A DNA stretch of 64,000 nucleotides from the IMG/VR virus record IMGVR_UViG_3300036800_000031, positions 25,254 to 89,253 of that record. One strand, 5' to 3'. Of this stretch, positions 14,743 through 29,342 are shown one piece after another. Position numbers and translations under genes: made by a program. This DNA is from a virus. Numbering within the stretch: position 1 is the stretch's first letter; each line of letters starts with the position of its first letter. The notes beneath the pieces are model-generated. The model did not search any database, was not told the origin of the DNA, and saw only the letters and a program-made list of their open reading frames with translations.

Positions 14743-14806
14743 CCCCCGAACGCGAAACGACCGGAGCCTTTTGGACCCCGGCCGAATCGCCTTCACAGTA
14801 CCTACG

Positions 14807-14878
14807 TGGCGGAGGGGAGACTCGAACTCCCGACTTCCTGGTTATGAGCCAGACGGGCTGCCGCTGCCCTACTCCGCT
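14807..14878 (-). tRNA. tRNA-Met(CAT), A1:C72 mismatch (initiator-like end)
   Basis: Cloverleaf by eye; loop CT-CAT-AA; T-loop TTCGAGT. Confidence 0.85.
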
Positions 14879-15408
14879 GTGCTCATAGAAGCTACCAGGG
14901 TGGGCCTACCGATAGCAAGGTATGGCTCCCAAGCGGGGTCTGGCCGGATTTTCAGGAGGTGGGCAGCGACGCCCTTGGGCCGGAAAGGGGTGTTGTGAAG
15001 TTCCCATCCCAGCGAGTCCAGGGTCTGGTGGCCCTTCTTCTGATTGCATCTCCGGCAACAAGCGGTGACGTTCTCCCAGGTGTGCTTTCCACCGAGCGCC
15101 CTGGGGACGATGTGGTCGATGGTGCCGTCCTGGCGGACGTCCTTCTGGCAGTAGCCACACCGGTACCCATCTCGGGCACAGACGTTGGAAGTGATGAGCA
15201 TGATGCTCCGGTGCTTCTCGGGCATCACGACGTACTTCCGAAGGACGAGGACCGAGGGGACCATGACCTGAGTAGACGGAGAGCGGAAGACTTCACCGCT
15301 GTATTCGATGGGGTCGGCAAGCTCCTCCAGGTAAAGCTCGACAGCATCCCGGTCGCGAATGATCGCGAGGGGTTCTCTGCTGGCGTTCAGGAGGAGCGCC
15401 CTGTTCAT
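14869..15408 (-). CDS. HNH endonuclease (McrA-like)
   Basis: RALLLNAS.EPL, RDGYRCGYC, TIDHIVP...GG..TWEN..ACC..CN..K. Confidence 0.92.
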   Translation of the reverse strand: MNRALLLNASREPLAIIRDRDAVELYLEELADPIEYSGEVFRSPSTQVMVPSVLVLRKYVVMPEKHRSIMLITSNVCARDGYRCGYCQKDVRQDGTIDHIVPRALGGKHTWENVTACCRRCNQKKGHQTLDSLGWELHNTPFRPKGVAAHLLKIRPDPAWEPYLAIGRPTLVASMSTAE

Positions 15409-15454
15409 CTGATTCTCGGTCTCTTTGTCATCGTCACTGCTTTCTGGTTGATTC

Positions 15455-15541
15455 TGGTCTCAGCGGCGGGAGTCGAACCCGCATGGCCGTTCAGGCCAGC
15501 CCGTTTTGAGCGGGGTGCGTATTCCGTTCCGCCACGCTGAG
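15455..15541 (-). tRNA. tRNA-Leu(CAA)
   Basis: Loop CT-CAA-AA, long variable arm, encoded CCA. Confidence 0.88.
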
Positions 15542-15559
15542 GTGATCTGAATAGTCCAA

Positions 15560-15646
15560 TGGTGCGAACGGGGAGAGTCGAACTCCCACTGGGCCGAGCC
15601 CACCACAGTCTCAGTGTGGCCTGTCTACCGATTCCAGCACGCTCGC
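15560..15646 (-). tRNA. tRNA-Leu(GAG)
   Basis: Loop CT-GAG-AC, long variable arm, CCA. Confidence 0.88.
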
Positions 15647-15647
15647 A

Positions 15648-15719
15648 TGGTGCCCCCGCCCGGAATCGAACCGGGATCGGCCTGATTAGAAGTCAGAGGA
15701 CGGATTCCATCCCGAGGGC
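15648..15719 (-). tRNA. tRNA-Arg(TCT), reduced D arm
   Basis: Loop CT-TCT-AA, canonical T arm, CCA. Confidence 0.8.
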
Positions 15720-15720
15720 T

Positions 15721-15790
15721 TGGTACCGGAGCCGAGAATCGAACTCGGTCGCCACGATTATGAGCCGTGGGCCTGCCCAGCAAATCCGGC
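15721..15790 (-). tRNA. tRNA-Met or Ile2(CAT), reduced D arm
   Basis: Loop CT-CAT-AA, canonical T arm, CCA. Confidence 0.72.
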
Positions 15791-15946
15791 AAGATCAGAT
15801 CGAATCTCCCGTGTGGCCTCTCGCTTCTCCTGGGCACGGGTAATGCGCTCGGGGCGTAGCCAGGAGTTGACCTCGCACATCCGATGCCCGTGGACAGGGC
15901 AGTGTGCGTTGATACCGATGTGCCCACGCATTTTCGCCATGAGCAC
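15758..15946 (-). CDS. small hypothetical protein reading into the CAT tRNA
   Basis: Fills the gap between His and CAT tRNAs; CxxH motif; stop TAA lies in the anticodon loop. Confidence 0.4.
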   Translation of the reverse strand: MLMAKMRGHIGINAHCPVHGHRMCEVNSWLRPERITRAQEKREATREIRSDLAGFAGQAHGS

Positions 15947-15954
15947 ATCGTAGG

Positions 15955-16030
15955 TGGGGTGGATGAGGGGAATCGAACCCCCTAACAGACACGGTCACAG
16001 CGTGCTCCCTCGCCATTTGGGTTCATCCAC
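15955..16030 (-). tRNA. tRNA-His(GTG)
   Basis: Loop CT-GTG-AC, C73 discriminator, CCA. Confidence 0.85.
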
Positions 16031-16032
16031 AG

Positions 16033-16104
16033 TCCACCAGGTAGGGATCGAACCTACGACCTTCACTTTGTAAGAGTGCTGCGCTCCCGCTGCGCCACTG
16101 GTGG
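16033..16104 (-). tRNA. tRNA-Val(TAC)
   Basis: Loop CT-TAC-AA; perfect 7-bp acceptor stem. Confidence 0.88.
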
Positions 16105-16161
16105 TTGATGCTGGGGCCGGAGGATCGTAGGCAGGCCCTTACCTCCCCTCCGGCCTTAGCG

Positions 16162-16234
16162 TGCCCCCGGCAGGAATCGAACCCGCTCATCCTCCGATTA
16201 AAAGTCGGCTGACCTCCCACTGGCCTACAAGGGC
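16162..16234 (-). tRNA. tRNA-Lys(TTT)
   Basis: Loop CT-TTT-AA. Confidence 0.85.
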
Positions 16235-16235
16235 A

Positions 16236-16311
16236 TGGTCCCCACCCTGGGTGTCGAACCCAGTGTCTTCCGAGTATCAGTCGGACGCCTTCACCGTCTG
16301 GCCCGATGGGG
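16236..16311 (-). tRNA. tRNA-Ile(GAT)
   Basis: Loop CT-GAT-AC, CCA. Confidence 0.85.
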
Positions 16312-16355
16312 ATAAGTCAGGGCGGGATGGCAGCGAACCACCATCACCGCCCCGG

Positions 16356-16428
16356 TGCCCGCAGAGGGTCTCGATCCCCCGGCCTTCGGCGTGTCGTGCC
16401 GACGCTCTCCCAACTGAGCTATGCGAGC
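16356..16428 (-). tRNA. tRNA-Val(GAC), atypical (C33, A54)
   Basis: Loop AC-GAC-AC; T-loop ATCGAGA; canonical D arm. Confidence 0.75.
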
Positions 16429-16429
16429 T

Positions 16430-16577
16430 TGGTGGAAACTCTCTCCCGGTCACGTCTGGCGACCGAACGGCACCGAGAGGGATGAACTCCGATGCTTCAC
16501 GGTCGGCGGCTTCAGCCACGTTCATCAGCGCGTGACGCCACCCAGCGACGTTCCTGAGAAGGAGGAGACAGGCTCCC
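16430..16577 (-). ncRNA. unknown structured RNA with G3:U70 acceptor-like stem and ACCA end
   Basis: GGGAGC/GTTTCC-ACCA terminal stem; internal GATGAAC/GTTCATC helix. Confidence 0.5.
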
Positions 16578-16584
16578 CCTTCGG

Positions 16585-16657
16585 TGGTTCCCGCCGGGAT
16601 CGAACCGACGCCTTCCGGGCTTCAACCGGACGCTGCTGCCAACTAAGCTAGAGAACC
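16585..16657 (-). tRNA. tRNA-Phe(GAA)
   Basis: Loop TT-GAA-GC. Confidence 0.85.
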
Positions 16658-17115
16658 TTGTTTTTTCTCCCCCGCCAGGTCGGCGTAAGGGCATGGCAGT
16701 TGGGGCATAGGATCGCCAGGTTCTCGATCCGGTGATCGTCCTTCACCCCGTTCATATGGTCAACCTCCAGTGGTATTGGCTGACCCATCCACTGGACCCG
16801 CTTGCACTCTTTACATTGACGCTTCCGCCCCTGCGCCAAGAGAATGGGCAGGAGGTGATAGGTCGGGTAGGTCGAGTTCTCGCAAAAGATTTCCTCCAGC
16901 GTGCGCCGACGAAGGGGCGCTCCACGGGTACCAACCCAGGACTGCCCGGTGAAGTGGCTGACATCGGCCCCAAGCCGCTTTGCATGTCTCTGGACCGAGC
17001 CGTAGTTGCCTCCGGCGAGATTAAGGCCGACTCCCCTGACTACCTGCGCCCAACTGGTCGAGGCGACGATGGCCTCCAGTAGCTCGGAATCGGTCCATGA
17101 CCTCGGCTTGCCCAT
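16648..17115 (-). CDS. HNH endonuclease
   Basis: RSWTD.EL..GGNY N-terminus; CKEC...LEVDHMNG..DDHRIENL.ILCPNCH; start moved to the ATG after the TAGACT box. Confidence 0.92.
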   Translation of the reverse strand: MGKPRSWTDSELLEAIVASTSWAQVVRGVGLNLAGGNYGSVQRHAKRLGADVSHFTGQSWVGTRGAPLRRRTLEEIFCENSTYPTYHLLPILLAQGRKRQCKECKRVQWMGQPIPLEVDHMNGVKDDHRIENLAILCPNCHALTPTWRGRKNKVL

Positions 17116-17132
17116 GCCGTAGTCTACCGTTA

Positions 17133-17163
17133 CGGACGCTCTCCCTGACTGAGCTAGGGAACC
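17133..17163 (-). pseudogene. 5' half remnant of tRNA-Phe
   Basis: GGTTCCC-TA-GCTC-AGTCAGGGA-GAGC-G-TCCG truncated in the anticodon stem; pairs perfectly with the 3' acceptor strand of the downstream tRNA-Phe. Confidence 0.8.
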
Positions 17164-17164
17164 T

Positions 17165-17239
17165 TGGTGCGGCCCGGAGGAATCGAACCCCATCCGAGAG
17201 GGCATAAGCCTCTCTGCGGCCACCAGCCGCACGAGCCGC
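17165..17239 (-). tRNA. tRNA-Ile(TAT)
   Basis: Loop CT-TAT-GC, A73, CCA. Confidence 0.78.
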
Positions 17240-17240
17240 A

Positions 17241-17313
17241 TGGAGCCGTCGCTGGGGGTCAAACCCAGCCGGGCGTCGTTACAAAGGACACCTCCGCATC
17301 GGGCGGCGACGGC
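17241..17313 (-). tRNA. tRNA-Thr(TGT), atypical
   Basis: Loop TT-TGT-AA with C:C at the closing pair; T-loop TTTGACC; CCA. Confidence 0.65.
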
Positions 17314-17314
17314 A

Positions 17315-17393
17315 TGGCTGGGGAGGAGGGCCTCGAACCCCCAAGGAATCCTGTTTCAAAGACAGGCGACTTTGCCACTTTGTCTACTCCCCA
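17315..17393 (-). tRNA. tRNA-Gln(TTG)
   Basis: Loop CT-TTG-AA, U1-A72, G73, CCA. Confidence 0.85.
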
Positions 17394-17394
17394 A

Positions 17395-17468
17395 TGGAAC
17401 GGACGAAGGGAATCGAACCCTCATAGTCAGATTGGAAGTCTGACGTTCTACCGTTGAACTACGTCCGC
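17395..17468 (-). tRNA. tRNA-Gly(TCC)
   Basis: Loop CT-TCC-AA, U73, CCA. Confidence 0.9.
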
Positions 17469-17469
17469 A

Positions 17470-17571
17470 TGGTGGACAGAGAGAAGATGCTCTCGACGTA
17501 TTACCGCCGTAAGTGTGACCCTCCCCTTTCCCAAGACCGTGGCATTGCCAGCTTGGGTTAGGCGTCTGCCC
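17470..17571 (-). ncRNA. unknown structured RNA with 7-bp G3:U70 acceptor stem and ACCA end
   Basis: GGGCAGA/TCTGTCC-ACCA; arms CCCAAG/CTTGGG and GGGGAG/CTTCTC; no T-loop or anticodon loop. Confidence 0.6.
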
Positions 17572-17582
17572 AGCGCCATCGG

Positions 17583-17654
17583 AGCGAATGACGGGGGTCG
17601 AACCCGCGACCTTCTCGTTGGCAACGAGACGCTCTACCACTGAGCCACATTCGC
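17583..17654 (-). tRNA. tRNA-Gly(GCC)
   Basis: Loop TT-GCC-AA; canonical. Confidence 0.92.
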
Positions 17655-17656
17655 AT

Positions 17657-17730
17657 TGGAGGCTGGACCCGGAATCGAACCGGGCTGACGCGGGTTGCAA
17701 CCGCGCACCTCACCACTCGGCCATCCAGCC
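17657..17730 (-). tRNA. tRNA-Cys(GCA)
   Basis: Loop TT-GCA-AC, U73, CCA. Confidence 0.9.
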
Positions 17731-17734
17731 AAAG

Positions 17735-17805
17735 CCCCCTCGCTAGGTAACGATCCCAGTTCTTCCGATTAACAGTCGGACGTGTGGCCTTCACACCGCA
17801 AGGGG
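17735..17805 (-). tRNA. tRNA-Asn(GTT), A54 T-loop
   Basis: Loop CT-GTT-AA; T-loop ATCGTTA; G73. Confidence 0.78.
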
Positions 17806-17809
17806 AAAA

Positions 17810-18226
17810 TCAAGCCACCACCTGCCGGTTGGCGCACCCACCCATTCGGTAGATCCGTTTGGCCTCCCTGCATCGGGAACACCGGCAGCCGTTTGGCATG
17901 TTGTACCGAGCACCTGTTCCGTGAGGTGGTACCGGCAACTTGTTGTGTCCACCACCAGAAGCCATATCTCCGGCTTCTTTCCCTTTCTCTATGTGGAGGG
18001 CATGGCAAAGAAGTTGACATTTCTCCAACTCGACCAAGAGGTTCTCCATCGAGTGAGAGAGCATGTTCGCTATCCCCTCGACCTTTGTAGTCCGGTCGAT
18101 GTGGTCTATTTCTAGGCGGTCTGTCGTACCGCAACGGACGCATTCACCTCCGAGGAAGTCGATAACGAACTCTCGTCGCTTCTTCCGACGTTCGACCATG
18201 TAGGTGTTCATATCTGCCATCGGCAT
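17810..18226 (-). CDS. HNH endonuclease
   Basis: LGGECVRCG...LEIDHID...KCQLLC..H; C-terminal HGT...Y..GCRC..C zinc motif. Confidence 0.88.
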   Translation of the reverse strand: MPMADMNTYMVERRKKRREFVIDFLGGECVRCGTTDRLEIDHIDRTTKVEGIANMLSHSMENLLVELEKCQLLCHALHIEKGKEAGDMASGGGHNKLPVPPHGTGARYNMPNGCRCSRCREAKRIYRMGGCANRQVVA

Positions 18227-18286
18227 AGGGGTTAACCGTACTACCGACGCCGACTGAGCACCCCCGCCAAGAGGGTCCGGTCAGGA

Positions 18287-18337
18287 TGGTGCCAGGCTTT
18301 CCGCCCCACTCGATCCCCGAAGGGTTACGAACCTGGC
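18287..18337 (-). ncRNA. mini tRNA-like RNA (7-bp stem plus ACCA)
   Basis: GCCAGGT/GCCTGGC-ACCA enclosing a CCC-TTCG-GGG hairpin. Confidence 0.4.
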
Positions 18338-18349
18338 TGGTGGTCTTCG

Positions 18350-18421
18350 TAGCGCGTGCGGGTGTTGATCCCGCGGCCTCCTGACTGAGAATCAGGCGTT
18401 CTCCCGTTGAACTAACGCGCC
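18350..18421 (-). tRNA. tRNA-Glu(CTC), A54 T-loop
   Basis: Loop TT-CTC-AG; T-loop ATCAACA. Confidence 0.8.
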
Positions 18422-18422
18422 T

Positions 18423-18497
18423 TGGTACAGCGACGGAGAATCGAACTCCGATTACCAGGGTGAAAACCTGGCCTCTTCGCCGTTAGAGGATCGCTGC
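18423..18497 (-). tRNA. tRNA-Glu(TTC)
   Basis: Loop TT-TTC-AC, CCA. Confidence 0.85.
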
Positions 18498-18563
18498 ATG
18501 AAGCTGAGTAGCCGCCACCCCAGGTACCCAGGTGACCAGTGAAGCCCCGGCGGACTGCCCCGG

Positions 18564-18647
18564 CGGAGAGTACAGGTGTCGATCCCGCGGACTTTCATCC
18601 GTATCCCTGCTTTCAAGGCAGGTTCCCAGGCCGCTGGGATACTCTCC
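18564..18647 (-). tRNA. tRNA-Ser(TGA), A54 T-loop
   Basis: GGAGAGT acceptor, loop CT-TGA-AA, long variable arm, G73. Confidence 0.82.
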
Positions 18648-19048
18648 CTGCTCGGGCTCGAACGGTGTTCTTGCCCTTGTAGGTTTCCGTCTGAGCGTGA
18701 CAGTTCGCGCAGAGCAGACGGAGATTCTCGATGCGGTGGTCATCGTTGATCCATCTCCAACGGAGCTGGCTCGCCGTTCCATTCGGTCAGGCCACACCGA
18801 TCACACTTCGGCTGCTTGATCCCCTCTCGGAGAAGCCGCCGTTTCACGTTGCCGGTGCTGTAGGTGGAGTGCTCCACTAGCACCGACTCCAGGGACCTCT
18901 GGTTGCCCCGTGGGGTCGCCCACGGCCTCGTGTGGGAGGTCGAGCAACTGATGGAGCAGTAGGCCCGCTGGGTCTGAGACAGGAAGTTGTGACAGGAGCC
19001 ATTCCCGCAAACATGCTGGCTGCGACCAGCGATCGGGAGCCAACTCAT
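18613..19048 (-). pseudogene. frameshifted HNH endonuclease
   Basis: Frame 1 ends PLEMDQR*; another frame resumes DDHRIENLRLLCANCHAQTETYKGKN; the DHxNG segment seen in the 16648 paralog is missing. Confidence 0.82.
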
Positions 19049-19093
19049 GACGACAGCTTACTATCCTGTTCGGGCGACCGAATGGCCGTCCAG

Positions 19094-19176
19094 CGGAAGT
19101 GGTCGGGGTCGAACCGACAGGGGCTTTCACCCGTAGACGCTTAGCGGGCGTCCTGCTCACCATTCGCATCACTTCC
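19094..19176 (-). tRNA. tRNA-Ser(GCT), C33
   Basis: Loop CC-GCT-AA, long variable arm, G73. Confidence 0.82.
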
Positions 19177-19180
19177 AAAG

Positions 19181-19248
19181 AACCCCCGCTGGGAATCGAA
19201 CCCAGCCAGCCGGTTTAGGAAACCAGCGCCCCTTCCACGGGCGAGGGC
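19181..19248 (-). tRNA. tRNA-Arg(CCT), reduced D arm
   Basis: Loop TT-CCT-AA; canonical T arm. Confidence 0.75.
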
Positions 19249-19249
19249 A

Positions 19250-19325
19250 TGGAGCCGACAGCCGGGATCGAACCGGCCACCTACGCGTTACGAGTGCGTC
19301 GCTCTCCCTACTGAGCTATGTCGGC
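19250..19325 (-). tRNA. tRNA-Thr(CGT)
   Basis: Loop CT-CGT-AA, CCA. Confidence 0.9.
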
Positions 19326-19326
19326 A

Positions 19327-19403
19327 TGGAGCCACGACGGGGGATCGAACCCCGGACCTCCTACTTACCAAGCAGGCGCTCTCCCTGACTGAGCTATCGC
19401 GGC
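19327..19403 (-). tRNA. tRNA-Thr(GGT)
   Basis: Loop TT-GGT-AA, CCA. Confidence 0.9.
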
Positions 19404-19477
19404 CGGACCGGCTAGACCATCAGCGCCCTTCCGGGTTGATTACGTCAGGGACGTTGTACACCGTCCTTTTCGCCGAG

Positions 19478-19546
19478 TGGCCAAGGTGGGACTCGAACCC
19501 ACAGGGCGTTCCTTCGGAGGGATCGCTGCATTCCATCGCCTTGGCC
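19478..19546 (-). tRNA. tRNA-Arg(CCG), atypical extended anticodon stem
   Basis: Perfect acceptor and T arms; GCGATCC-[CT-CCG-AA]-GGAACGC; minimal D arm. Confidence 0.6.
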
Positions 19547-19547
19547 C

Positions 19548-19623
19548 TGGTACCCCCATCCAGGGTCGAACTGAAATCTTCGGTTCCGTAGACCGACGCT
19601 CTGATCCATTGAGCTATGAGGGC
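19548..19623 (-). tRNA. tRNA-Arg(ACG)
   Basis: Loop CT-ACG-GA, CCA. Confidence 0.88.
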
Positions 19624-19630
19624 AAGAAAA

Positions 19631-19739
19631 AAGCGGACCTCCCACTCGCAGGCCGGTATGCCTTCCGACCCCGTACACTCGGCTCGGGCACCACCCCTTC
19701 GCCACGTCGCAATCATGCTGGTGGTAAGACGGTCCGCTT
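19631..19739 (-). ncRNA. unknown structured RNA closed by a 9-bp stem
   Basis: AAGCGGACC/GGTCCGCTT followed by a T run; inner ACCACC/GGTGGT. Confidence 0.4.
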
Positions 19740-19795
19740 TCGGGACAGCCGCCCTGTGGCGGCTTTTCATCGCAGGATTGCCTGCGCATCCCGAG

Positions 19796-19868
19796 CGGTC
19801 GTGACCGGTTTTGATCCGGCTACCTCCACCTTGACAGGGTGGCGCTCTCCCGAGTGAGCTACACGACC
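19796..19868 (-). tRNA. tRNA-Asp(GTC), A54 T-loop
   Basis: Loop CT-GTC-AA; T-loop ATCAAAA; G73. Confidence 0.85.
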
Positions 19869-19869
19869 T

Positions 19870-19946
19870 TGGTCCGCTAGACAGGATTTGAACCTGCGAC
19901 CTCATCGTCCCGAACGATGCGCGCTCCCTAGCTGCGCTACTAGCGG
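19870..19946 (-). tRNA. tRNA-Pro(CGG)
   Basis: Loop TT-CGG-GA, CCA. Confidence 0.9.
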
Positions 19947-19947
19947 T

Positions 19948-20021
19948 TGGCTCCCCAGCCAAGGGTCGAACTTGGATACCGAGATTCAGAATCTCGTGTG
20001 CTGCCATTACACCACCGGGGA
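19948..20021 (-). tRNA. tRNA-Gln(CTG)
   Basis: Loop TT-CTG-AA, U1-A72, CCA. Confidence 0.9.
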
Positions 20022-20094
20022 AGGCTGCGGACTCTGCCGCGGGTCACGCCTAGTTAGGGTCGGCGTTCACCCATGCCCGGTGATCAGTCGGGAG

Positions 20095-20166
20095 TCGGAT
20101 ACCGGAGAGTCGAACTCCGCTGGGCCTGGCCCCAAACCAGGTGCCTAACCGATCGGCATGTATCCG
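20095..20166 (-). tRNA. tRNA-Pro(TGG)
   Basis: Loop TT-TGG-GG; CGG start. Confidence 0.82.
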
Positions 20167-20240
20167 GTGTCGCTGTCTCTCCAGCAGCAACGTCTGGTAT
20201 CCCCAGGTCTAAGTAGGGGTTCGGGACGACGTTCTCCCGG

Positions 20241-20312
20241 TCGGACTGGAGGGGATCGAACCCTCGACTTCTCGGCCCCCAGCCGAGCGCTCTACCTCTG
20301 AGCCACAGTCCG
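20241..20312 (-). tRNA. tRNA-Pro(GGG)
   Basis: Loop CT-GGG-GG. Confidence 0.88.
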
Positions 20313-20320
20313 GTGAAACC

Positions 20321-20413
20321 TGACCCGCTGCCAGTAGACAGTTGCCCCGGAGGGCTTCACATGCGTGTGCACCTCGCATGAACGACGGAATGGATTATCA
20401 CCGTCCCGAGTCA
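20321..20413 (-). ncRNA. tRNA-shaped five-helix RNA without tRNA consensus loops
   Basis: TGACTCG/CGGGTCA closing four hairpins. Confidence 0.4.
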
Positions 20414-20416
20414 TTG

Positions 20417-20489
20417 TGCGCCCGGTGGGGTTTGAACCCACGACCTTGGGATTAAGAATCCCCTGCTCTCCCGGCTGAGCTACAAGCGC
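20417..20489 (-). tRNA. tRNA-Lys(CTT)
   Basis: Loop TT-CTT-AA. Confidence 0.88.
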
Positions 20490-20490
20490 C

Positions 20491-20575
20491 TGGTGCGTGT
20501 GGAGGGAGTCGAACCCTCAGCCCCGAAGGGCACCGCTTCTGGGGCGGCTGCGTATACCAGTTCCGCCACGAACGC
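20491..20575 (-). tRNA. tRNA-Leu(CAG), C33
   Basis: Loop CC-CAG-AA, long variable arm, CCA. Confidence 0.82.
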
Positions 20576-20610
20576 AGGATGGGCAGTTTTCAGACTTGGC
20601 CCAGGTCGCG

Positions 20611-20683
20611 TGGAGCCTACGAGGATCGAACTCGTTACCTCCTGTTTGCAAAACAGGCGCTCTCCCGGATGAGCTAAGGCCCC
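20611..20683 (-). tRNA. tRNA-Ala(TGC)
   Basis: Loop TT-TGC-AA, G3:U70. Confidence 0.92.
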
Positions 20684-20689
20684 AAAGCT

Positions 20690-20791
20690 AGGATGCGGGC
20701 TGCCATTACACCACCGCAGCCCCCGAGGGGGTGAAAGTTCCCTTGCGGTTGCTCTCTTACGCGACGTGGAATCGAACCACGACCTCATCCT
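20690..20791 (-). ncRNA. circularly permuted tRNA-like RNA (YrlA/Y-RNA-like topology)
   Basis: 5'-AGGATG-AGGT-CGTGG-TTCGATT-CCACG-TCGCG...TGCGG-TG-GTGTAATGGCAGCCC-G-CATCCT-3': T arm precedes D arm and the ends pair as the anticodon stem. Confidence 0.65.
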
Positions 20792-20793
20792 CG

Positions 20794-20872
20794 TCCGCCG
20801 CCTCAGAATCGAACTGAGCGTGCTTGCGCGGCTGGTTTACAGCCAGCCTGGCCCCCTTGGCGCGTGCGACGG
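20794..20872 (-). tRNA. tRNA-Tyr(GTA), C1-G72
   Basis: Loop CT-GTA-AA, small variable hairpin, A73. Confidence 0.78.
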
Positions 20873-21012
20873 ATGCGGGACGGTCGGTACCCGGGCAACT
20901 GCCCGGCCCGTCCCATTTGGACTATTCAGCGTGACGGGTTTTGTTCGGTACCGTCACTATCGCCTGCTACCTCCCTCACTCGCCATGACGGACGAGGTAC
21001 TGAGGTTTGAAG

Positions 21013-21046
21013 CATGGGTGGAGGGAGTCGAACCCCCCTTCACCTC
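21013..21046 (-). pseudogene. 3' half remnant of resident tRNA-Trp
   Basis: GGGGG-TTCGACT-CCCTC-CACCCAT-G; acceptor strand complements ATGGGTG at 21503-21509. Confidence 0.82.
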
Positions 21047-21047
21047 G

Positions 21048-21118
21048 CATGGGCGTCAGGAATCGAACCTGATCGGCGAGAGTTTTGGAGACTCTCCGGC
21101 TACCTCAGCCTCGCCCAT
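21048..21118 (-). tRNA. tRNA-Trp(CCA), reduced D arm, lying mostly within the HNH ORF
   Basis: ATGGGCG/CGCCCAT-G, loop CT-CCA-AA, canonical T arm. Confidence 0.82.
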
Positions 21119-21454
21119 ATGCGCTCGGAAGTAGGTGCGATCCCCGTGGCACAGGGCACACACCACTTCACACTTGGCTATCTCGGCCAGCAGCCGGGCA
21201 ACCGAAGCCGGAGAATGAGCCATCCGGTTGATACATCGGTCTTTCTCCTCGTCCCCGAGGTGGTCGAAGTGCATGTTCCAGAACCCGTACTGGATTCCAC
21301 AATCTGCACAGGGCCGGTTTTTGTGCTCTCGGACTATCGACCGATTGCGCTCCCGGTACTCGACTACTCGCTGCCGATACTGAGCCTTGTTGTTTCGATA
21401 ATGCTTCCTCTTGCTCTCCTTCAGTCGTGGATCTTCTAGGTCGAGATAGGCCAT
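21056..21454 (-). CDS. HNH endonuclease
   Basis: PCADCG...MHFDHL...EIAKCEVVCALCH..RT. Confidence 0.9.
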   Translation of the reverse strand: MAYLDLEDPRLKESKRKHYRNNKAQYRQRVVEYRERNRSIVREHKNRPCADCGIQYGFWNMHFDHLGDEEKDRCINRMAHSPASVARLLAEIAKCEVVCALCHGDRTYFRAHMGEAEVAGESPKLSPIRFDS

Positions 21455-21473
21455 GCCCTCAGCGTAGGTCCAG

Positions 21474-21509
21474 TGGAAGCCGCTGCTCTGCCCACTGAGC
21501 TACACCCAT
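21474..21509 (-). pseudogene. 5' half remnant of resident tRNA-Trp
   Basis: ATGGGTG-TA-GCTC-AGTGGGCA-GAGC-A-GCGGC-TT-CCA, ending right after the anticodon. Confidence 0.85.
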
Positions 21510-21510
21510 A

Positions 21511-21541
21511 AGAAAAGGCCACCCCTATTGGGATGGCCTCT
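21511..21541 (-). terminator. intrinsic terminator (attenuator) ahead of the tRNA array
   Basis: GAGGCCATCCC-AATA-GGGGTGGCC followed by TTTTCTT. Confidence 0.8.
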
Positions 21542-21569
21542 GGATTCTCCGCTTCTACTTCAGATGCGG

Positions 21570-21695
21570 TTACGAGAGGCTCACCCCTGGCTTGGCTTCG
21601 GTGGATGTATTCCACTGATAGCCGGGCACGAGGATCGACAGGCACGGCAACGCCGTCCCTCGATCTTCATAGCTCGGAAACAGTTGGAACCTCAT
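21570..21695 (-). CDS. putative leader peptide (41 aa) of tRNA-array attenuator
   Basis: MRFQLFPSYEDRGTALPCLSILVPGYQWNTSTEAKPGVSLS*; ATG 7 nt after the -10; last codons form the antiterminator strand. Confidence 0.7.
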   Translation of the reverse strand: MRFQLFPSYEDRGTALPCLSILVPGYQWNTSTEAKPGVSLS

Positions 21696-21702
21696 GACGT
21701 TC

Positions 21703-21730
21703 ATAGTACCCCGATTTCGAGGGGGGTCAA
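21703..21730 (-). promoter_or_regulatory. sigma70/SigA-type promoter of the tRNA array
   Basis: TTGACC-N16-TACTAT. Confidence 0.75.
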
Positions 21731-22368
21731 GTACCCTGTGCTGCCCGGCGGCTTGGAAGGCCCATCGTGTTGCCGATCTGCCCGCCGTTCATCCAGTGGT
21801 GCCAGGTCCAGGTGCGCTCCGGAAGGTGAGCGATTTTGTACCCGGAGCGGGCGAGCTTGATGGCGAAGTGGAACTCCTCCCCAGCCCGATTTCCGTCCTC
21901 ATCCTGACCCGGATCGAGAGGGTCGGTCCCGTCTTCCCAAAGGAACCCGTTGACCGCCAATGCCGCTTCGGTACGCACGAGGACGGTCACGGTGGTCTGG
22001 TGGGGATCGGCCAGATCGAACTCCCGTCCGAAGTTGTCAGGGAAGGGGTCCGAGCCGCCCATGACGTAGAACCAAGGGAACACCATGTCCGCCCCGGTCT
22101 CAATCTGCTTCTCCATCAGCCGTTGGAGGTGGTGCTCCCCGAACTCGTCGTCGTCATCCAGAAAGGCAACCCACTCGGTGTCCACCATTTCCAAGCCACG
22201 GGTGCGGGTGATGGCCGCTCCTACTCCGAAAACGTCGCTGGCGACGATCAGCGTATGGGGGAGAACGGTGCCCTTCTGGACGGAAGTAACCGCCCGGCCT
22301 AGAAGCTGTGCCCGCTCGGGGATGGTGGTGACGACGACGGTGATCCCCGGCCTTAGCTGGCTCGACAC
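21727..22368 (-). CDS. glycosyltransferase family 2
   Basis: ITVVVTT..R...L.RAV.SV, G.A.TR.RGL, WVAFLDDDD. Confidence 0.9.
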   Translation of the reverse strand: MSSQLRPGITVVVTTIPERAQLLGRAVTSVQKGTVLPHTLIVASDVFGVGAAITRTRGLEMVDTEWVAFLDDDDEFGEHHLQRLMEKQIETGADMVFPWFYVMGGSDPFPDNFGREFDLADPHQTTVTVLVRTEAALAVNGFLWEDGTDPLDPGQDEDGNRAGEEFHFAIKLARSGYKIAHLPERTWTWHHWMNGGQIGNTMGLPSRRAAQGT

Positions 22369-22994
22369 AGTGATCCCTCCTTGGTCCGTTGGAAATGACG
22401 ACGGTGCCGCTCGTCAGTTGGGAAAGACCTTCCGCAGGCATCACAATAAAACTCCCCCCTGGCTCTATCAGAGCGTTTTCGGGCTGCGTACTTTCGGCTG
22501 CTGACATTCCTGCACGTTCTACATGTTCGGTTTCCGTTCGCCCGGATAATCGTGTTGCTAAGGGTGAACCTATGACCCCGATTACAACAATCGAGAGCCT
22601 TGCGCCTTACTGCTATAGGCGAATGGGGAGCAGGGATAGGGCCTAGCTCCATGTGTCCAGGGTTCACACAGTGACGCAACCCGCACAAGTGAAGGGGCAT
22701 TTGTTCGTCGGGTATTGGGCCAACTAAAAGTTGGTAGGCATACTTGTCAGCCCTGACTGTCTTTGTCGGCCTCCCCTGTCCGGCTCCGAAGATCCCATAT
22801 CCTGTCCCTGGGTGTACAGCTGCCATCCAGACCCAACAACCGCCTTCCAGCTGTATATCGACTTTCTCCCAAAACCGTTCCACCGCATCCCTTCGTCGGA
22901 TCAGATTCCAACACTGGGGGTTACAAAATCTTTGACCACGACGACCCTGGAACTCATCCCCGCACTGTTCACAGATCAGACTTCGGTCAGTCAT
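22353..22994 (-). CDS. HNH endonuclease
   Basis: RFWEKVD...CWVW...GYG.F, LHLC..RHCVNPGH, C..GH...CRTC. Confidence 0.85.
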   Translation of the reverse strand: MTDRSLICEQCGDEFQGRRGQRFCNPQCWNLIRRRDAVERFWEKVDIQLEGGCWVWMAAVHPGTGYGIFGAGQGRPTKTVRADKYAYQLLVGPIPDEQMPLHLCGLRHCVNPGHMELGPIPAPHSPIAVRRKALDCCNRGHRFTLSNTIIRANGNRTCRTCRNVSSRKYAARKRSDRARGEFYCDACGRSFPTDERHRRHFQRTKEGSLCRAS

Positions 22995-23173
22995 CGTCCG
23001 GCGATCTTCTCGGTGAGCTTGTTGCCCGGCTCACAGTCGCGCCCGTCGTAGTAGTGGGTCATCCCATCGCCAGGCTGGCAGGCGGAGTCGCCCTTCTGCG
23101 GACCGTCCAGTTGGTCTGGAACGAACTGCTCGGTTATGCCGCATTGGCACTTTCTCGGTTTGGCATACCTCAC
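22991..23173 (-). CDS. hypothetical protein
   Basis: Small ORF with 4-nt overlaps on both sides. Confidence 0.5.
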   Translation of the reverse strand: MRYAKPRKCQCGITEQFVPDQLDGPQKGDSACQPGDGMTHYYDGRDCEPGNKLTEKIAGR

Positions 23174-23547
23174 TTACCCAGTTCCTTCCACGCCTCCAGC
23201 GCACCGTCAGCGGCTCGGTCAATCCACTCGTCGTAGTTGACGATTTCACATTCCGGGTTGGTGCAATGAGCCAGGTGCTCCGAGGTGATGAAGCACAACG
23301 GGCATCGGTCACTCCCGTCTTCGTTCTGGAACATCACCGACATCCCGACCGGGCTTTTCATCACGTTTCCGATGATCGCCCAGTGAGCCGACATCAGCGG
23401 ATCGAAGTTGTCGACGTTAGAGCCGTCTTGGGCCTCCGAGACTAGGTTCTTCACCGCTTGTTCCCCTCCCTCTGCTACCAGAGAGGAAAGTCCACGAGCG
23501 TCAATCGCCGCCCGCAATGCTGACCAGTGGTCGGTGCAGAACTTCAT
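23170..23547 (-). CDS. hypothetical protein
   Basis: ORF coupled by ATGA/GTGA overlaps. Confidence 0.7.
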   Translation of the reverse strand: MKFCTDHWSALRAAIDARGLSSLVAEGGEQAVKNLVSEAQDGSNVDNFDPLMSAHWAIIGNVMKSPVGMSVMFQNEDGSDRCPLCFITSEHLAHCTNPECEIVNYDEWIDRAADGALEAWKELGK

Positions 23548-24431
23548 GCTTTCATCGCCCTTCGGATGCCTTCCTCCAGGGTGACCTTCGGCTGGTAGTA
23601 GCGGAACATGAGGTCCGGGTTGGCGCAGCGGTAGAAGGCCCCGGTGGGCTTCTCAGATCGGGTCTGCATCTTCGGCTTGTATCCGAAGGCGGTGGTGACC
23701 ATCTCGGCCAAGGTGAGGAGGGAAGTCGGGACGCCCGTCCCCAAGTTGACCGGGCCTTGGAAGTTGGCCTCCAACATGGCCATCACCGCAGCCACGATGT
23801 CGTCAATGTGGATGAAGTCCCGCACTTGGTCCCCGGTTCCCCATACCGGAAAGGGGTCGGTCTTCTTCATCGCCCGGTCCAGGAAGGCGGTGAAGGGGTA
23901 GTCCACGCTTTGGTCGGTGCCGTAGCCGCTGAACGGCCGGAGGACCAAGATGTCGAGACCTTGGCGCTTCGCCTCACGGGCTTGGACTTCCCCGGTGAGC
24001 TTGGTCAAGCCATACATAGCGTCGGGGCAGGCGAGATTGTCCAGGTCGATTGAGTCCTCCCCGAGCCGCCGGGCCGCTGGGTACCGCTGAATGCTGATCG
24101 GGTAGGCGGCGGAGGAGGAGAAGTAGACGATCTTGGTCGGGGGGTTGCGCAGCGCCCACTGGAAGAACATCGAGTCGATGGCAAAGTCCTGAGCGACCGG
24201 CATGTCGTTGTGCTTCCGCTGGTCGATAGGGGGGATGGTGGCGGCGCAGTGAATGGCGAGGTCGAACTTCACCTCCACCGTCTGGAAGAACTTGATCGCG
24301 TCGATGGGTAGCGGCCCCCGGATGTCGAAACCGTAAGCGTCCCACCCGGTTTTTTCTAGGTAGGACTGGAAATGCCGCCCGACGAATCCGAGGTTCCCGG
24401 TGATCAGCGCCGTCTTCCGCTTCCGCCTCAC
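23544..24431 (-). CDS. NAD-dependent epimerase/dehydratase
   Basis: ITGNLGFVG Rossmann motif, SSSAAY, YGLTK, RPFSGYG, RDFIHIDD. Confidence 0.93.
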   Translation of the reverse strand: MRRKRKTALITGNLGFVGRHFQSYLEKTGWDAYGFDIRGPLPIDAIKFFQTVEVKFDLAIHCAATIPPIDQRKHNDMPVAQDFAIDSMFFQWALRNPPTKIVYFSSSAAYPISIQRYPAARRLGEDSIDLDNLACPDAMYGLTKLTGEVQAREAKRQGLDILVLRPFSGYGTDQSVDYPFTAFLDRAMKKTDPFPVWGTGDQVRDFIHIDDIVAAVMAMLEANFQGPVNLGTGVPTSLLTLAEMVTTAFGYKPKMQTRSEKPTGAFYRCANPDLMFRYYQPKVTLEEGIRRAMKA

Positions 24432-25033
24432 GGTTGGACTCCGACGATGACCTGGAAGCCGTAACCGTCCGGGTCACTGAGGGCGTGGTGGATCACCTGG
24501 AATCCGCCTTGTTCGATCAGCGCCCGGTAGCCGTCCAAATCCCAGGCCCAAGCGTGGCAGGCGTCGTGGCTCTCGTAAGTCTCAAAGGCCGGGCTGCTGG
24601 CGACGATGAACCGGGAGTGGCGACTGATCCGGCGCACGGCGGCGTGCGGGTCGGGCAGGTGCTCCAGGCACTCGGTGATAATGGTGAGCACGCCCCACTG
24701 AATCTCCTCGTGCTCGAAGTCCCGGTGGTGGACGGTGACCCCCCTCGTATTTTGAGCGTAAGCCACGTTGGCCGGGCTGAGGTCGTAACCCCACCTTTCG
24801 ACATCCAAGCCGCTTAGAAGGGACAGCAGGCCCCCGTCACCGGCCCCTAGATCACTAATGGTGGTGATGTCGGGGTAGTGGGCTACCAGGGAGTGAACTT
24901 CGACCGCGACGTCCTTCAAGCGGGTGACGTGCGCCCCTTGCTCCAGATGAGGAGCGTGCTCACGGGTGTCATACCAAGAGGGGATGAAGAAGTCCGGCGG
25001 GTCGGCCGGGTCGTACAGCTGGTGCTCGGTCAT
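24428..25033 (-). CDS. SAM-dependent methyltransferase
   Basis: DLGAGDG motif I, ECLEHLPDP. Confidence 0.88.
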   Translation of the reverse strand: MTEHQLYDPADPPDFFIPSWYDTREHAPHLEQGAHVTRLKDVAVEVHSLVAHYPDITTISDLGAGDGGLLSLLSGLDVERWGYDLSPANVAYAQNTRGVTVHHRDFEHEEIQWGVLTIITECLEHLPDPHAAVRRISRHSRFIVASSPAFETYESHDACHAWAWDLDGYRALIEQGGFQVIHHALSDPDGYGFQVIVGVQP

Positions 25034-25263
25034 GGTCCTGCGATCAGATCGGCGGAGACCATGAGTTCGTTCCCGCTCATGGGGTCGATCCGGTACTTCC
25101 AGGTGCCGTTGTCGGCGACGATGGTAATGACCCCGTTGACGACGCTGACCCCGCTCAGGGCGTCGTGGCTCATCAGCCCGATCAACTCCCGGCTGAAAAG
25201 CTCCCGCGGCCCGGCGTCGTGGACGAGGGTGGCCCCGGTGGGGTCCCGCTCAATGGTGATCAC
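25030..25263 (-). CDS. hypothetical protein
   Basis: GTG start overlapping the upstream TGA; 3' part of the listed 207-aa ORF. Confidence 0.55.
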   Translation of the reverse strand: MITIERDPTGATLVHDAGPRELFSRELIGLMSHDALSGVSVVNGVITIVADNGTWKYRIDPMSGNELMVSADLIAGP

Positions 25264-26200: not shown

Positions 26201-26225
26201 GGCTCTCTGTCTAGTTGATATGCGG

Positions 26226-26303
26226 TAGCGGGGGTGGGATTCGAACCCACGACCTCCGACCCGAAAGTGAGTCGGCGAGCTAACCGGGCTGCTCTACCCC
26301 GCG
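26226..26303 (-). tRNA. initiator-tRNA-like gene with aberrant anticodon arm
   Basis: CGCGGGG-TA-GAGC...GCTC fMet-type body, C1:U72 mismatch, canonical T arm; loop TCACTTTCGG (10 nt) lacks CAT. Confidence 0.65.
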
Positions 26304-27382: not shown

Positions 27383-27389
27383 CGGGTCA

Positions 27390-29335: not shown

Positions 29336-29342
29336 GGGTGAC

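What the first reader, a model, noticed from the sequence alone, without database searches (positions are those of the whole stretch)
21511..21730. Pan-codon leader-peptide attenuator gating a 37-gene phage tRNA array
Seen: a TTGACC-N16-TACTAT promoter is followed 7 nt later by a leaderless 41-codon ORF (21695-21570). It uses 32 distinct sense codons and 19 of 20 amino acids (no His), including AT-ending codons that look rare in this GC-rich genome (TTT, TAT, AAT, ACA, CGA, CAA). Its last codons (GGGGTG-A-GCCTCT, 21587-21575) can pair 12 bp with AGAGGC-CATCCC, the 5' strand of the intrinsic terminator (21541-21511) directly before the first tRNA remnant, so the two helices are mutually exclusive. 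Established: this is the geometry of trp/his-type ribosome-mediated attenuators, which normally use runs of one codon. Inference: a ribosome reaching the stop covers the antiterminator strand and transcription terminates; a stall at any earlier codon frees it. The array would then switch on when almost any host tRNA is depleted or cleaved. I know of no described example.
Basis: partly seen in the sequence, partly recalled or inferred. Interest (0 to 1): 0.95.

Follow-up and report, generated by a model that had tools for sequence, protein, structure and literature searches.

The report
All-amino-acid leader gating phage tRNA genes
A soil phage puts a tiny gene that uses nearly every amino acid, wired to a switchable transcription stop, directly in front of its 34 tRNA genes, so it probably makes its own tRNAs only when protein synthesis in the cell slows down.

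Summary
The sequence features are real. A 41-codon ORF (21695-21570; 32 codons, 19 of 20 amino acids) ends 2 nt after a strand that pairs either with the terminator's 5' arm or not at all. The terminator (21541-21510) is the strongest on this strand in 17 kb and abuts the first tRNA gene. Three further leaders support the reading. Two homologous small ORFs from other soil assemblies (P0121, P0122; 75% and 58% identical) and a non-alignable 35-codon ORF at the same place in a distant syntenic phage (L082) each contain all 20 amino acids. L082 repeats the geometry: stop codon inside the antiterminator strand, terminator, tRNA-Trp 6 nt later. Modelled ribosome footprints give antiterminator for stalls at codons 3-31 and terminator once the ribosome reaches the ORF end. 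One G-C to A-U double change keeps the antiterminator in a relative. Both ORFs show coding-like GC3. Not supported: rare-codon enrichment, the promoter (chance-level match), and "37-gene array" (34 in the array). No transcription or translation data exist. This scan's earlier notes report the same kind of element in other phage genomes. Five paper searches found no published account. Best reading, confidence about 0.6: a ribosome-mediated attenuator acting as a general aminoacyl-tRNA and translation gauge.

The parts
21725..21730 (-). -35-like hexamer TTGACC; it overlaps the TGA stop of the upstream glycosyltransferase gene (21727-22368)
   Evidence: Such matches occur at chance frequency (2 found, 2.3 expected in 13 kb).
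21703..21708 (-). -10-like hexamer TACTAT, 7 nt before the ATG at 21695; its last bases form the in-frame upstream ATG at 21704
   Evidence: GGTAYTAW occurs 2 times in 64 kb here and once in L082, there also 7 nt before the leader start. The motif was derived after seeing both sequences.
21570..21695 (-). Leader ORF: 41 sense codons plus TAA, 19 amino-acid types (44 codons if started at 21704)
   Evidence: Full-length homologues P0121 and P0122.
21686..21693 (-). Region 1 (codons 1-4), which pairs with region 2 in the full-length minimum-energy fold
   Evidence: This pairing is not dominant in the nascent transcript.
21575..21587 (-). Region 2: antiterminator 5' strand (codons 37-41), ending 2 nt before the stop codon
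21549..21569 (-). Small spacer hairpin between the stop codon and region 3
   Evidence: This is the most diverged part in the relative.
21530..21541 (-). Region 3: shared strand, partner of region 2 (antiterminator) or region 4 (terminator)
21510..21525 (-). Region 4 (terminator 3' arm, 21525-21514) and T-run (21516-21510)
   Evidence: It is the strongest hairpin plus T-run on this strand in 13000-30000.
21474..21509 (-). 5' fragment (36 nt, through the anticodon CCA) of the ancestral first tRNA gene, tRNA-Trp; it starts 1 nt after the T-run
21038..21473 (-). 436-nt insertion absent from a relative: HNH endonuclease gene (21454-21056) plus a replacement tRNA-Trp (21118-21047)
   Evidence: joint 21037/21474; phrog_3106, E=1.1e-19
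21012..21037 (-). 3' fragment of the ancestral tRNA-Trp
14806..21118 (-). Array of 34 tRNA genes covering all 20 amino acids, interrupted by HNH endonuclease genes; the capsid gene (14608-13370) follows

Best explanation
This is a ribosome-mediated transcription attenuator that gates entry of RNA polymerase into the phage's tRNA array. A short ORF carrying single codons for (nearly) every amino acid is transcribed and translated.

If the ribosome runs quickly to the stop codon, it covers region 2. Region 3 then pairs with region 4, the intrinsic terminator forms, and transcription stops 1 nt before tRNA-Trp.

If the ribosome is absent, late, or stalled anywhere in about the first three quarters of the ORF, region 2 pairs with region 3 first. 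The terminator cannot form and polymerase reads into the 34 tRNA genes.

The element would therefore gauge overall aminoacyl-tRNA supply and translation speed. It would turn the full tRNA set on when any charged tRNA is short, and off again once supply recovers, which is negative feedback.

Shown: the sequence anatomy, the alternative pairings and their statistics, conservation of ORF length, stop position and amino-acid completeness in relatives, and one compensatory pair.

Inferred: the transcription start, translation (leaderless or from the upstream ATG), kinetic competition, and the physiological signal.
For: (1) Geometry. The stop codon lies 2 nt after region 2, and 2:3 and 3:4 are mutually exclusive. 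In nascent transcripts cut before region 4, P(3:2) is 1.00 with no ribosome or with the A site at codons 3-31. It falls to 0.27 at codon 35 and 0.00 at codon 39 and at the stop.

(2) No room for a promoter. The terminator is the strongest hairpin plus T-run on this strand in 17 kb. It ends 1 nt before the ancestral tRNA-Trp, so that tRNA can only be made by read-through.

(3) Independent replicate, L082. It has a syntenic array (Trp, Tyr, Ala, Leu, Lys, Pro ...) and a 35-codon ORF with 20 of 20 amino acids, the only one of 114 ORFs of 30-50 codons to reach 20. P=0.001 against gene segments, and P=0.0002 or 0.005 against composition shuffles. Its stop codon lies inside region 2. The duplex is -25.1 kcal/mol, matched by 15 of 2000 shuffles anywhere and 1 of 2000 near the stop. 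At equilibrium P(3:2) is 0.61-0.94 for stalls at codons 3-27, and P(3:4) is 0.98-0.99 from codon 31 to the stop. Its terminator (-23.0) is the strongest in 11 kb and ends 6 nt before tRNA-Trp.

(4) Homologous leaders. P0121 (44 aa) and P0122 (43 aa) each have all 20 types. Between the window and P0122 only 23 columns are identical, carrying 15 types. D, F, H, I and Y are supplied from different positions. P(all 20 by chance) = 0.010.

(5) Covariation. 21585 G>A is matched by 21532 C>U. The relative's region 2 pairs at -16.3 kcal/mol with its own region 3 against -11.5 with the window's. The terminator is unchanged (-21.2 against -21.6).

(6) Coding signs. GC3 is 30 of 41 (P=0.016) and 28 of 35 (P=0.008). 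The relative has a 3-nt in-frame deletion and keeps the stop codon. No longer protein shares the sequence.

(7) The module travels with the array. The upstream neighbour is a glycosyltransferase here, 2650 nt of other DNA in the P0122 lineage, and two tRNA(CUA) genes in L082.

(8) Roster match. Both arrays encode tRNAs for all 20 amino acids.
Against: There is no evidence of a transcription start. The promoter match is at chance level, and the scan finds none at the L082 leader. Neither start codon has a good Shine-Dalgarno sequence, so translation rests on an assumed leaderless start or on the upstream ATG.

In the window the full-length equilibrium ensemble is terminator for every ribosome position (P(3:4) 0.75-1.00). 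Read-through therefore needs kinetic trapping, which was not tested.

The window ORF's diversity is unremarkable given its codon-position composition (P=0.13).

There is no rare-codon enrichment and no excess of codons with exact cognate phage anticodons: 26 of 40, P=0.61, and 20 of 34, P=0.43.

Codons occur singly, not in runs, so sensitivity to mild shortage may be low.

The only Lys codon here (codon 35) and the only Asn codon in L082 (codon 31) lie where a stalled ribosome would already cover much of region 2.

Conserved peptide blocks in P0121 and P0122 could reflect a functional micro-protein.

The basis is small: four leaders from two independent lineages, and one compensatory pair. One pair (21577/21539) is broken in the relative.
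Confidence: 0.6

Rival explanations
1. An ordinary small phage protein gene with its own strong terminator. The tRNA array is expressed by unregulated leak-through or from internal promoters. The competing helix and the amino-acid completeness are coincidental.
For: The peptide is 58-75% identical among three assemblies, with conserved blocks. GC3 is coding-like. The window ORF's diversity is P=0.13 given its composition. The window's equilibrium fold is the terminator.
Against: Substitutions in the aligned 29 codons are mostly non-synonymous (2 synonymous codon changes, 7 replacements, 1 codon deletion), so the peptide sequence itself is poorly constrained. L082 has an unrelated peptide with the same geometry and all 20 amino acids. 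There is no space for a promoter between the terminator and tRNA-Trp. Pfam finds no family for the 44-aa ORF.
Confidence: 0.15
2. A terminator that is read through with the help of a phage or host antitermination factor, or a processive antitermination RNA. The ORF plays no sensing role.
For: A strong terminator sits inside a co-oriented late-gene series, protease ... array ... capsid. Phages are known from the literature (recalled, not checked here) to use factor-dependent antitermination. The leader region folds well: z=-4.84 with the terminator, -3.60 without it.
Against: No Rfam family matches the leader here or in L082. This does not explain the stop codon sitting in or next to the competing strand in two unrelated leaders. 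It does not explain the 20-amino-acid completeness or the coding-like GC3.
Confidence: 0.1
3. A stable non-coding RNA (sRNA or processing signal for the tRNA precursor) with its own terminator. The open frame is incidental.
For: Fold z-scores are -4.84 and -3.60. Other top-diversity ORFs in the genome overlap tRNA genes, so structured RNA with balanced composition can mimic diverse ORFs.
Against: The hairpin inside the ORF body is not maintained in the relative. 21620 U>C breaks a pair, and a 3-nt deletion falls in or next to its 5-nt loop (my hand mapping). The indel is in frame and the stop is kept. GC3 periodicity is present in both leaders. Gene-length homologues of 43-44 aa exist. No Rfam match.
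Confidence: 0.07

Closest known systems
Leader-peptide transcription attenuators of amino-acid operons (trpL, hisL, pheL, thrL, ilvL; actinobacterial ilvBNC and trp leaders)
   Same: A short translated ORF whose end overlaps an antiterminator strand that competes with an intrinsic terminator. A ribosome reaching the stop favours termination, and a stalled ribosome favours read-through. The mechanism is recalled. I saw only search listings and abstract starts for PMC3082878, PMC11857589 and PMC1262725.
   Different: There are no runs of one or two regulatory codons; instead single codons for 19-20 amino acids. The regulated genes are tRNAs, not biosynthetic enzymes. The element is phage-encoded. 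With no ribosome, the antiterminator is predicted to form in the nascent transcript, so no trp-style 1:2 'superattenuation' is predicted.
Mycobacterial leaderless polycysteine short-ORF attenuators (Canestrari et al., bioRxiv 10.1101/834739; abstract and outline read)
   Same: A short sensory ORF, possibly leaderless and starting with 5' AUG or GUG, on which ribosome pausing sets expression of downstream genes. The setting is a GC-rich, probably actinobacterial one.
   Different: In that system the stalled ribosome unmasks a ribosome-binding site (translational control) and senses cysteine only. Here the output is an intrinsic terminator, the genes are untranslated tRNAs, and all amino acids are represented.
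Anabaena trn operon, a silent long tRNA array induced under translational stress (PMC8421152, passages read; PMC10272220, listing only)
   Same: The same physiological logic: an accessory full tRNA set switched on when translation is impaired.
   Different: Control there is at the promoter, through direct repeats and a repressor. The main text has 0 occurrences of 'attenuat', 'leader peptide' or 'terminator'. That array is cellular, not phage-borne.
T-box riboswitches
   Same: Terminator/antiterminator switches that report tRNA charging (recalled).
   Different: T-boxes bind one uncharged tRNA directly and need no ORF. No Rfam T-box or other family matched the leader at E<=1 or E<=5 in L082.
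Antibiotic-responsive leader-peptide attenuators of resistance genes (e.g. vmlR PMC9226507, msrD PMC10314930; listings and abstract starts only)
   Same: A leader ORF used as a general detector of a slowed ribosome, coupled to transcription attenuation.
   Different: Those respond to a drug-bound ribosome on a specific peptide context and control a protein-coding resistance gene.
Earlier notes of this scan: 'leader-peptide attenuators gating phage tRNA arrays' in at least 8 other genomes
   Same: A tiny ORF written in the amino acids of the downstream tRNA block, plus a switchable terminator. Those agents also found no published account.
   Different: Those are mostly giant phages with several block-specific leaders. 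Here one leader with (nearly) all 20 amino acids heads one full-set array in an 89-kb GC-rich phage, with a possibly leaderless start. The notes are unchecked AI notes, and I could not see their DNA.

Membership tests
Ribosome-mediated (leader-peptide) transcription attenuator | Short ORF immediately upstream of the regulated genes, in the same transcript | tested here: met
   A 41-codon ORF ends 60 nt before the first tRNA gene. L082 has a 35-codon ORF. Homologues are 43-44 aa.
Ribosome-mediated (leader-peptide) transcription attenuator | The ORF is translated | not testable with these tools
   Only indirect signs are available: GC3 excess (P=0.016 and 0.008), an in-frame indel and retained stop, and no good SD.
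Ribosome-mediated (leader-peptide) transcription attenuator | Intrinsic terminator between the ORF and the regulated genes | tested here: met
   -20.4 kcal/mol hairpin plus TTTTCTT. It is the strongest in 17 kb. The same holds in L082 (-23.0).
Ribosome-mediated (leader-peptide) transcription attenuator | Antiterminator mutually exclusive with the terminator, with its 5' strand within a ribosome footprint of the stop codon | tested here: met
   Shuffle controls near the stop: 2 of 2000 and 1 of 2000. One compensatory pair.
Ribosome-mediated (leader-peptide) transcription attenuator | Runs or strong enrichment of codons for the amino acid(s) sensed | tested here: not met
   There are no runs: 19-20 amino-acid types, mostly 1-5 copies each. 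P0122 has 11 single-copy types. This is the feature that makes it a variant.
Ribosome-mediated (leader-peptide) transcription attenuator | Read-through rises when the cognate charged tRNA is scarce | not testable with these tools
   Needs reporter or Term-seq experiments.
Leaderless sensory short ORF (mycobacterial type) | Transcript begins at the A or G of the start codon | tested here: inconclusive
   A -10-like hexamer lies 7 nt upstream in the window and in L082. The promoter match is at chance level and is absent from the scan in L082. An upstream in-frame ATG is kept in all three homologues.
T-box riboswitch | Conserved T-box fold (Rfam model) with specifier loop | tested here: not met
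   No match in 14000-27000 at E<=1, nor in L082 2300-3000 at E<=5.

The most novel reading that the evidence does not exclude
Phages carry a universal 'all-20' translation gauge. It is a leader ORF kept under selection to contain every amino acid at least once, so that loss of any single charged tRNA releases a complete back-up tRNA set. Such loss could come from a host anticodon nuclease, from starvation, or from the phage's own codon demand. The same element would shut the array off again once decoding recovers.
Probability: 0.4. Interest if true: 0.9.

Novelty: new variant of a known kind. Interest (0 to 1): 0.8.

Why it matters
How phages time and dose expression of their tRNA genes is largely unknown. 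So is why they carry near-complete tRNA sets.

A leader that samples all 20 amino acids would be the first attenuator built to report global decoding capacity rather than a single amino acid. It would also be the first to regulate tRNA genes themselves. It would link phage tRNA arrays mechanistically to translational stress and to tRNA-targeting host defences.

The idea is directly testable with a roughly 230-nt cassette in a reporter. It also offers a compact synthetic sensor of translation speed.

The comparative signature is unusual. The peptide sequence drifts, while ORF length, stop position, amino-acid completeness and the competing helix persist. That signature could be used to find more such elements.

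Tried and rejected
Searches for relatives
- DNA searches of the phage collection found nothing: megablast with 21000-22400 and blastn with 21400-22400 both gave no match. The capsid protein gave only matches below 31% identity in the 30 rows listed, and all 615 records are below 60%. So there is no cultured close relative.
- 80 glycosyltransferase relatives from IMG/VR have no tRNA array downstream and no homologue of the element.
- Of 5 capsid relatives, only L082 carries an array.
- These DNA or peptide pattern scans gave nothing new: only L082's own contig; 0; 0; metagenome contigs, 0 relatives; 0; genome contigs, 0.
The DNA around P0002, P0121 and P0122 could therefore not be fetched. For the P0122 lineage I have only the differences listed by read laying. 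Of 29 substitutions in 21474-21656, 24 are listed. The two runs are aligned differently in the spacer.

Other checks
- Sequencing runs: no RNA holder listed, so nothing can be said on expression. Runs X2 and X4 gave only short pieces.
- Other phage arrays looked at once: Gordonia phage GMA2 and the jumbo-phage locus L093. Neither shows this ORF-plus-terminator geometry upstream of its array. This was not a systematic survey.
- Rare-codon and codon-anticodon 'matching' ideas: rejected as not different from ordinary genes.
- Remnant-of-a-longer-gene idea, raised by the alignment break at 21656: rejected. No longer protein shares words (the tool itself calls this weak evidence), and full-length 43-44-aa homologues exist.
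- The window and L082 leaders do not align convincingly, so no covariance model was built.
- P0123-P0125 are repeat proteins with short partial matches and were dropped.

Faults in my own calls
- ended with a script error after printing all 80 loci.
- One search had an indexing bug (all P(3:2)=0) and is superseded.
- One search was a too-early collection.

Limits on the literature check
- Supplementary files of papers were not consulted. Supplementary Figure S9 of PMC8421152 (promoter mapping) may bear on the comparison with Anabaena.
- Not-in-print claim: searches found no paper that describes a leader-peptide attenuator ahead of tRNA genes. Subscription-only papers are not covered.
Full report
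WHERE WE ARE. The window is bases 25254-89253 of an 89,253-bp IMG/VR virus record with direct terminal repeats. It has 62% GC and comes from soil metagenome data. Around the finding everything is on the minus strand. In order: prohead protease (29335-27617), a glycosylation cluster (GT1, methyltransferase, epimerase), an HNH endonuclease gene (22994-22353) and a family-2 glycosyltransferase (22368-21727). The element follows, then 34 tRNA genes (21118-14806), then the major capsid gene (14608-13370). The array encodes tRNAs for all 20 amino acids. The whole genome has 37 tRNA genes, and three of them lie outside the array.

THE OBSERVATION.
- TTGACC-16-TACTAT at 21730-21703;
- an ATG 7 nt later at 21695;
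- 41 sense codons and TAA (to 21570), with 32 distinct codons and 19 amino-acid types, His missing;
- region 2 (21587-21575), which pairs as 12 bp plus one bulge with 21541-21530, the 5' arm of a GC-rich hairpin followed by TTTTCTT;
- a tRNA 5' fragment directly after it.

Corrections. The promoter match is no better than chance: 2 found against 2.3 expected in 13 kb. The array has 34 tRNAs, not 37. Several AT-ending codons are individually rare, but the ORF as a whole uses codons like ordinary phage genes (CAI P=0.12; GC3 0.72 against 0.74). An in-frame ATG at 21704 gives a 44-codon version.

IS THE PAIRING MORE THAN CHANCE?
- The best duplex between the terminator's 5' arm and the 153 nt upstream is -20.6 kcal/mol and ends 2 nt before the stop codon.
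- 8 of 2000 dinucleotide shuffles do as well anywhere. 2 of 2000 do so within the 24 nt around the stop.
- With a home-made hairpin-plus-T-run finder, this terminator (-20.4) is the strongest on the coding strand between 13000 and 30000. The generic scan missed it, probably because the stem can extend into the T-run. That explanation is my inference.

HOW THE SWITCH WOULD BEHAVE. I masked a ribosome footprint (-15 to +14 around the A site) and computed pairing probabilities.
- In the nascent RNA cut just before region 4, region 3 pairs with region 2 with P=1.00 when there is no ribosome or the A site is at codons 3-31. P is 0.27 at codon 35 and 0.00 at codon 39 and at the stop.
- At full-length equilibrium the terminator wins at every position (P 0.75-1.00).
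- The window's element must therefore work kinetically, as is accepted for the trp leader (recalled).
- In isolation, the antiterminator with its inner hairpin is -28.0 kcal/mol and the terminator is -21.6.

AN INDEPENDENT REPLICATE. L082 is the one capsid relative that carries an array (65% identity, 35 tRNAs plus a tmRNA, gene order Trp-Tyr-Ala-Leu-Lys-Pro as here). The 228 nt before its tRNA-Trp hold a -10-like TATTAA and, 7 nt later, a GTG-started 35-codon ORF (2691-2798; MTCDRIFQDEWAKPMGITPSALRVHAYQPSNEGAF with the GTG start read as M). This ORF contains all 20 amino acids. A strong terminator follows (-23.0 kcal/mol, the strongest in 11 kb) and ends 6 nt before tRNA-Trp.
- The ORF is not alignable to the window's.
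- It is the only plus-strand ORF of 30 or more codons lying wholly in that gap.
- It is the only one of 114 ORFs of 30-50 codons in the locus with 20 types.
- P is 0.001 against same-length gene segments and 0.0002 or 0.005 against composition shuffles.
- Its stop codon lies inside a strand that pairs (-25.1 kcal/mol; 15 of 2000 shuffles anywhere, 1 of 2000 near the stop) with a stretch sharing 7 nt with the terminator's 5' arm.
- Here the switch works even at equilibrium. P(3:2) is 0.61-0.94 for stalls at codons 3-27, and P(3:4) is 0.98-0.99 from codon 31 to the stop.
- Upstream of this leader are two tRNA(CUA) genes, not a glycosyltransferase, so the module belongs to the array rather than to the upstream operon.

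HOMOLOGOUS LEADERS.
- A word-based search with the 44-aa ORF found P0121 (44 aa, 75% identical). A full HMMER scan of 1.84 billion representatives with a two-sequence profile found P0122 (43 aa, E=3.5e-13). The other three hits are repeat proteins and were dropped.
- No longer protein shares words with the ORF.
- Both homologues contain all 20 amino acids, counted from either ATG. For comparison, P(20 types) in same-length gene segments is 0.0020 for 41 codons and 0.0017 for 40.
- Between the window and P0122 only 23 columns are identical, and those carry 15 types. D, F, H, I and Y are supplied from the 17-18 variable positions, at different places in the two peptides. The chance that random residues at those positions complete the set is 0.010. 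For reaching 19 or more types in the window it is 0.12.
- The three homologues are related, so these figures are not independent. The pattern is still that of selection on the set of amino acids, not on the peptide sequence.

DNA OF A RELATIVE. Logan contigs of two soil runs (54,612 and 23,029 nt) lie on the window at 20800-21037, 21474-21656 and 21755-22352. Their C-terminal changes match P0122.

(a) The relative lacks 21038-21473. With the 12 letters it has there instead, ARAGORN calls an intact 74-nt tRNA-Trp starting at 21509, 1 nt after the T-run. Ancestrally, therefore, the terminator abuts the first tRNA gene, with no room for a promoter.

(b) 2650 nt of other DNA separate its glycosyltransferase gene from its leader.

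(c) In the shared strand, 21533 U>C and 21532 C>U both keep pairing with region 4 (terminator -21.2 against -21.6 kcal/mol). 21532 C>U is matched by 21585 G>A in region 2. The relative's region 2 pairs at -16.3 with its own region 3, but only at -11.5 with the window's. One pair (21577/21539) becomes C.A.

(d) In the ORF, GGG>GGA and GTG>GTC are synonymous. The other codon changes replace residues. One 3-nt deletion is in frame, and the TAA is kept.

(e) The spacer between the stop codon and region 3 is the most changed part.

OTHER SIGNS OF CODING. GC at codon position 3 is 30 of 41 (hypergeometric P=0.016) here and 28 of 35 (P=0.008) in L082. Positions 1 and 2 are not enriched.

WHAT IT MOST LIKELY IS. 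This is a leader-peptide transcription attenuator whose leader samples all amino acids and whose target is a complete tRNA set. Fast, complete translation leads to termination. A missing, late or stalled ribosome leads to read-through. Without translation the antiterminator is predicted to form in both phages, so the default is ON. That differs from trp. The element would report any failure of decoding and would give negative feedback once tRNA supply is restored.
- Weak points are listed in the Against line. The main ones: no data on transcription start or translation, no good Shine-Dalgarno sequence, single codons rather than runs, and one amino acid in each family whose only codon lies in the 'blind' zone.
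- Rivals: a plain small gene with a leaky terminator, factor-dependent antitermination, and a non-coding RNA. Each explains only some of the features.

COMPARISON WITH WHAT IS KNOWN.
- The mechanism is that of classical attenuators. It fails one defining feature of that family (runs of regulatory codons), and the regulated genes are tRNAs.
- Mycobacterial leaderless polycysteine short ORFs (10.1101/834739, abstract read) share the possible leaderless sensory ORF but act on translation.
- The Anabaena trn array (PMC8421152, passages read) shares the physiology but is promoter-controlled.
- T-boxes are excluded by Rfam.
- Five literature searches found no account of such an element.
- This scan's own earlier notes describe the same kind of element in at least eight other phage genomes. 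They are unchecked leads, and I could not see their DNA.

VERDICT. It is a new variant of a known kind of control, of high interest.

Noticed in passing
window 21012-21509 (minus strand): The first tRNA gene, tRNA-Trp, is split after its anticodon by a 436-nt insertion. The insertion carries an HNH endonuclease gene (phrog_3106, E=1.1e-19) whose 3' end overlaps a complete replacement tRNA-Trp (21118-21047). A relative lacks the insertion and has an intact tRNA-Trp. This looks like a homing cassette that brings its own, presumably cleavage-resistant, tRNA copy.
   Followed up: partly
window 14879-15454, 16658-17164, 17806-18348, 18648-19092 (minus strand): Four more gaps in the tRNA array hold endonuclease-like ORFs. 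14869-15408 matches phrog_16726 (HNH). The others I judged HNH-like by eye only. The gap at 17164 again begins with a tRNA-like 5' fragment. The array appears heavily colonised by homing endonucleases.
   Followed up: partly
window 46461-46988 (plus strand); L082 2035-2645; L089, L092, L094-L096: A small protein with a sub-threshold PTH2 (peptidyl-tRNA hydrolase) match (21.0 and 14.7 bits, cut-off 23; phrog_1866, unknown function) is followed by one or two tRNAs with anticodon CUA (amber suppressors, called 'Pyl' by ARAGORN). The pairing recurs in 5 of the 7 other IMG/VR loci fetched with it.
   Followed up: partly
window 19624-19794 (minus strand): A 171-nt gap inside the array ends with a weak hairpin plus T-run directly before tRNA-Arg(ACG). 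It contains an open frame with 18 amino-acid types (my count from the translation) that runs into the tRNA. The opposite strand has a terminator-like hairpin at 19747-19764. It could be a second, degenerate control point or chance.
   Followed up: no
window 13370-29335: The tRNA array and a glycosylation gene cluster (two glycosyltransferases, epimerase, methyltransferase) sit between the prohead protease and the major capsid gene. This is an unusual place for 8 kb of accessory DNA.
   Followed up: no
L082 3988-4364: The related phage's array contains a tmRNA gene (tag EDNTSIADEATAWLAEQSLIAA), which the window's array lacks.
   Followed up: no
L093 4300-4620: In a 192-kb phage contig the array is preceded by a TTGACA-17-TAGGAT promoter-like site and by a Shine-Dalgarno-led ORF (MFYWYPPQPGRPCVRG...) that reads into the first tRNA gene, with no terminator. 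The arrangement is different and unexplained.
   Followed up: no
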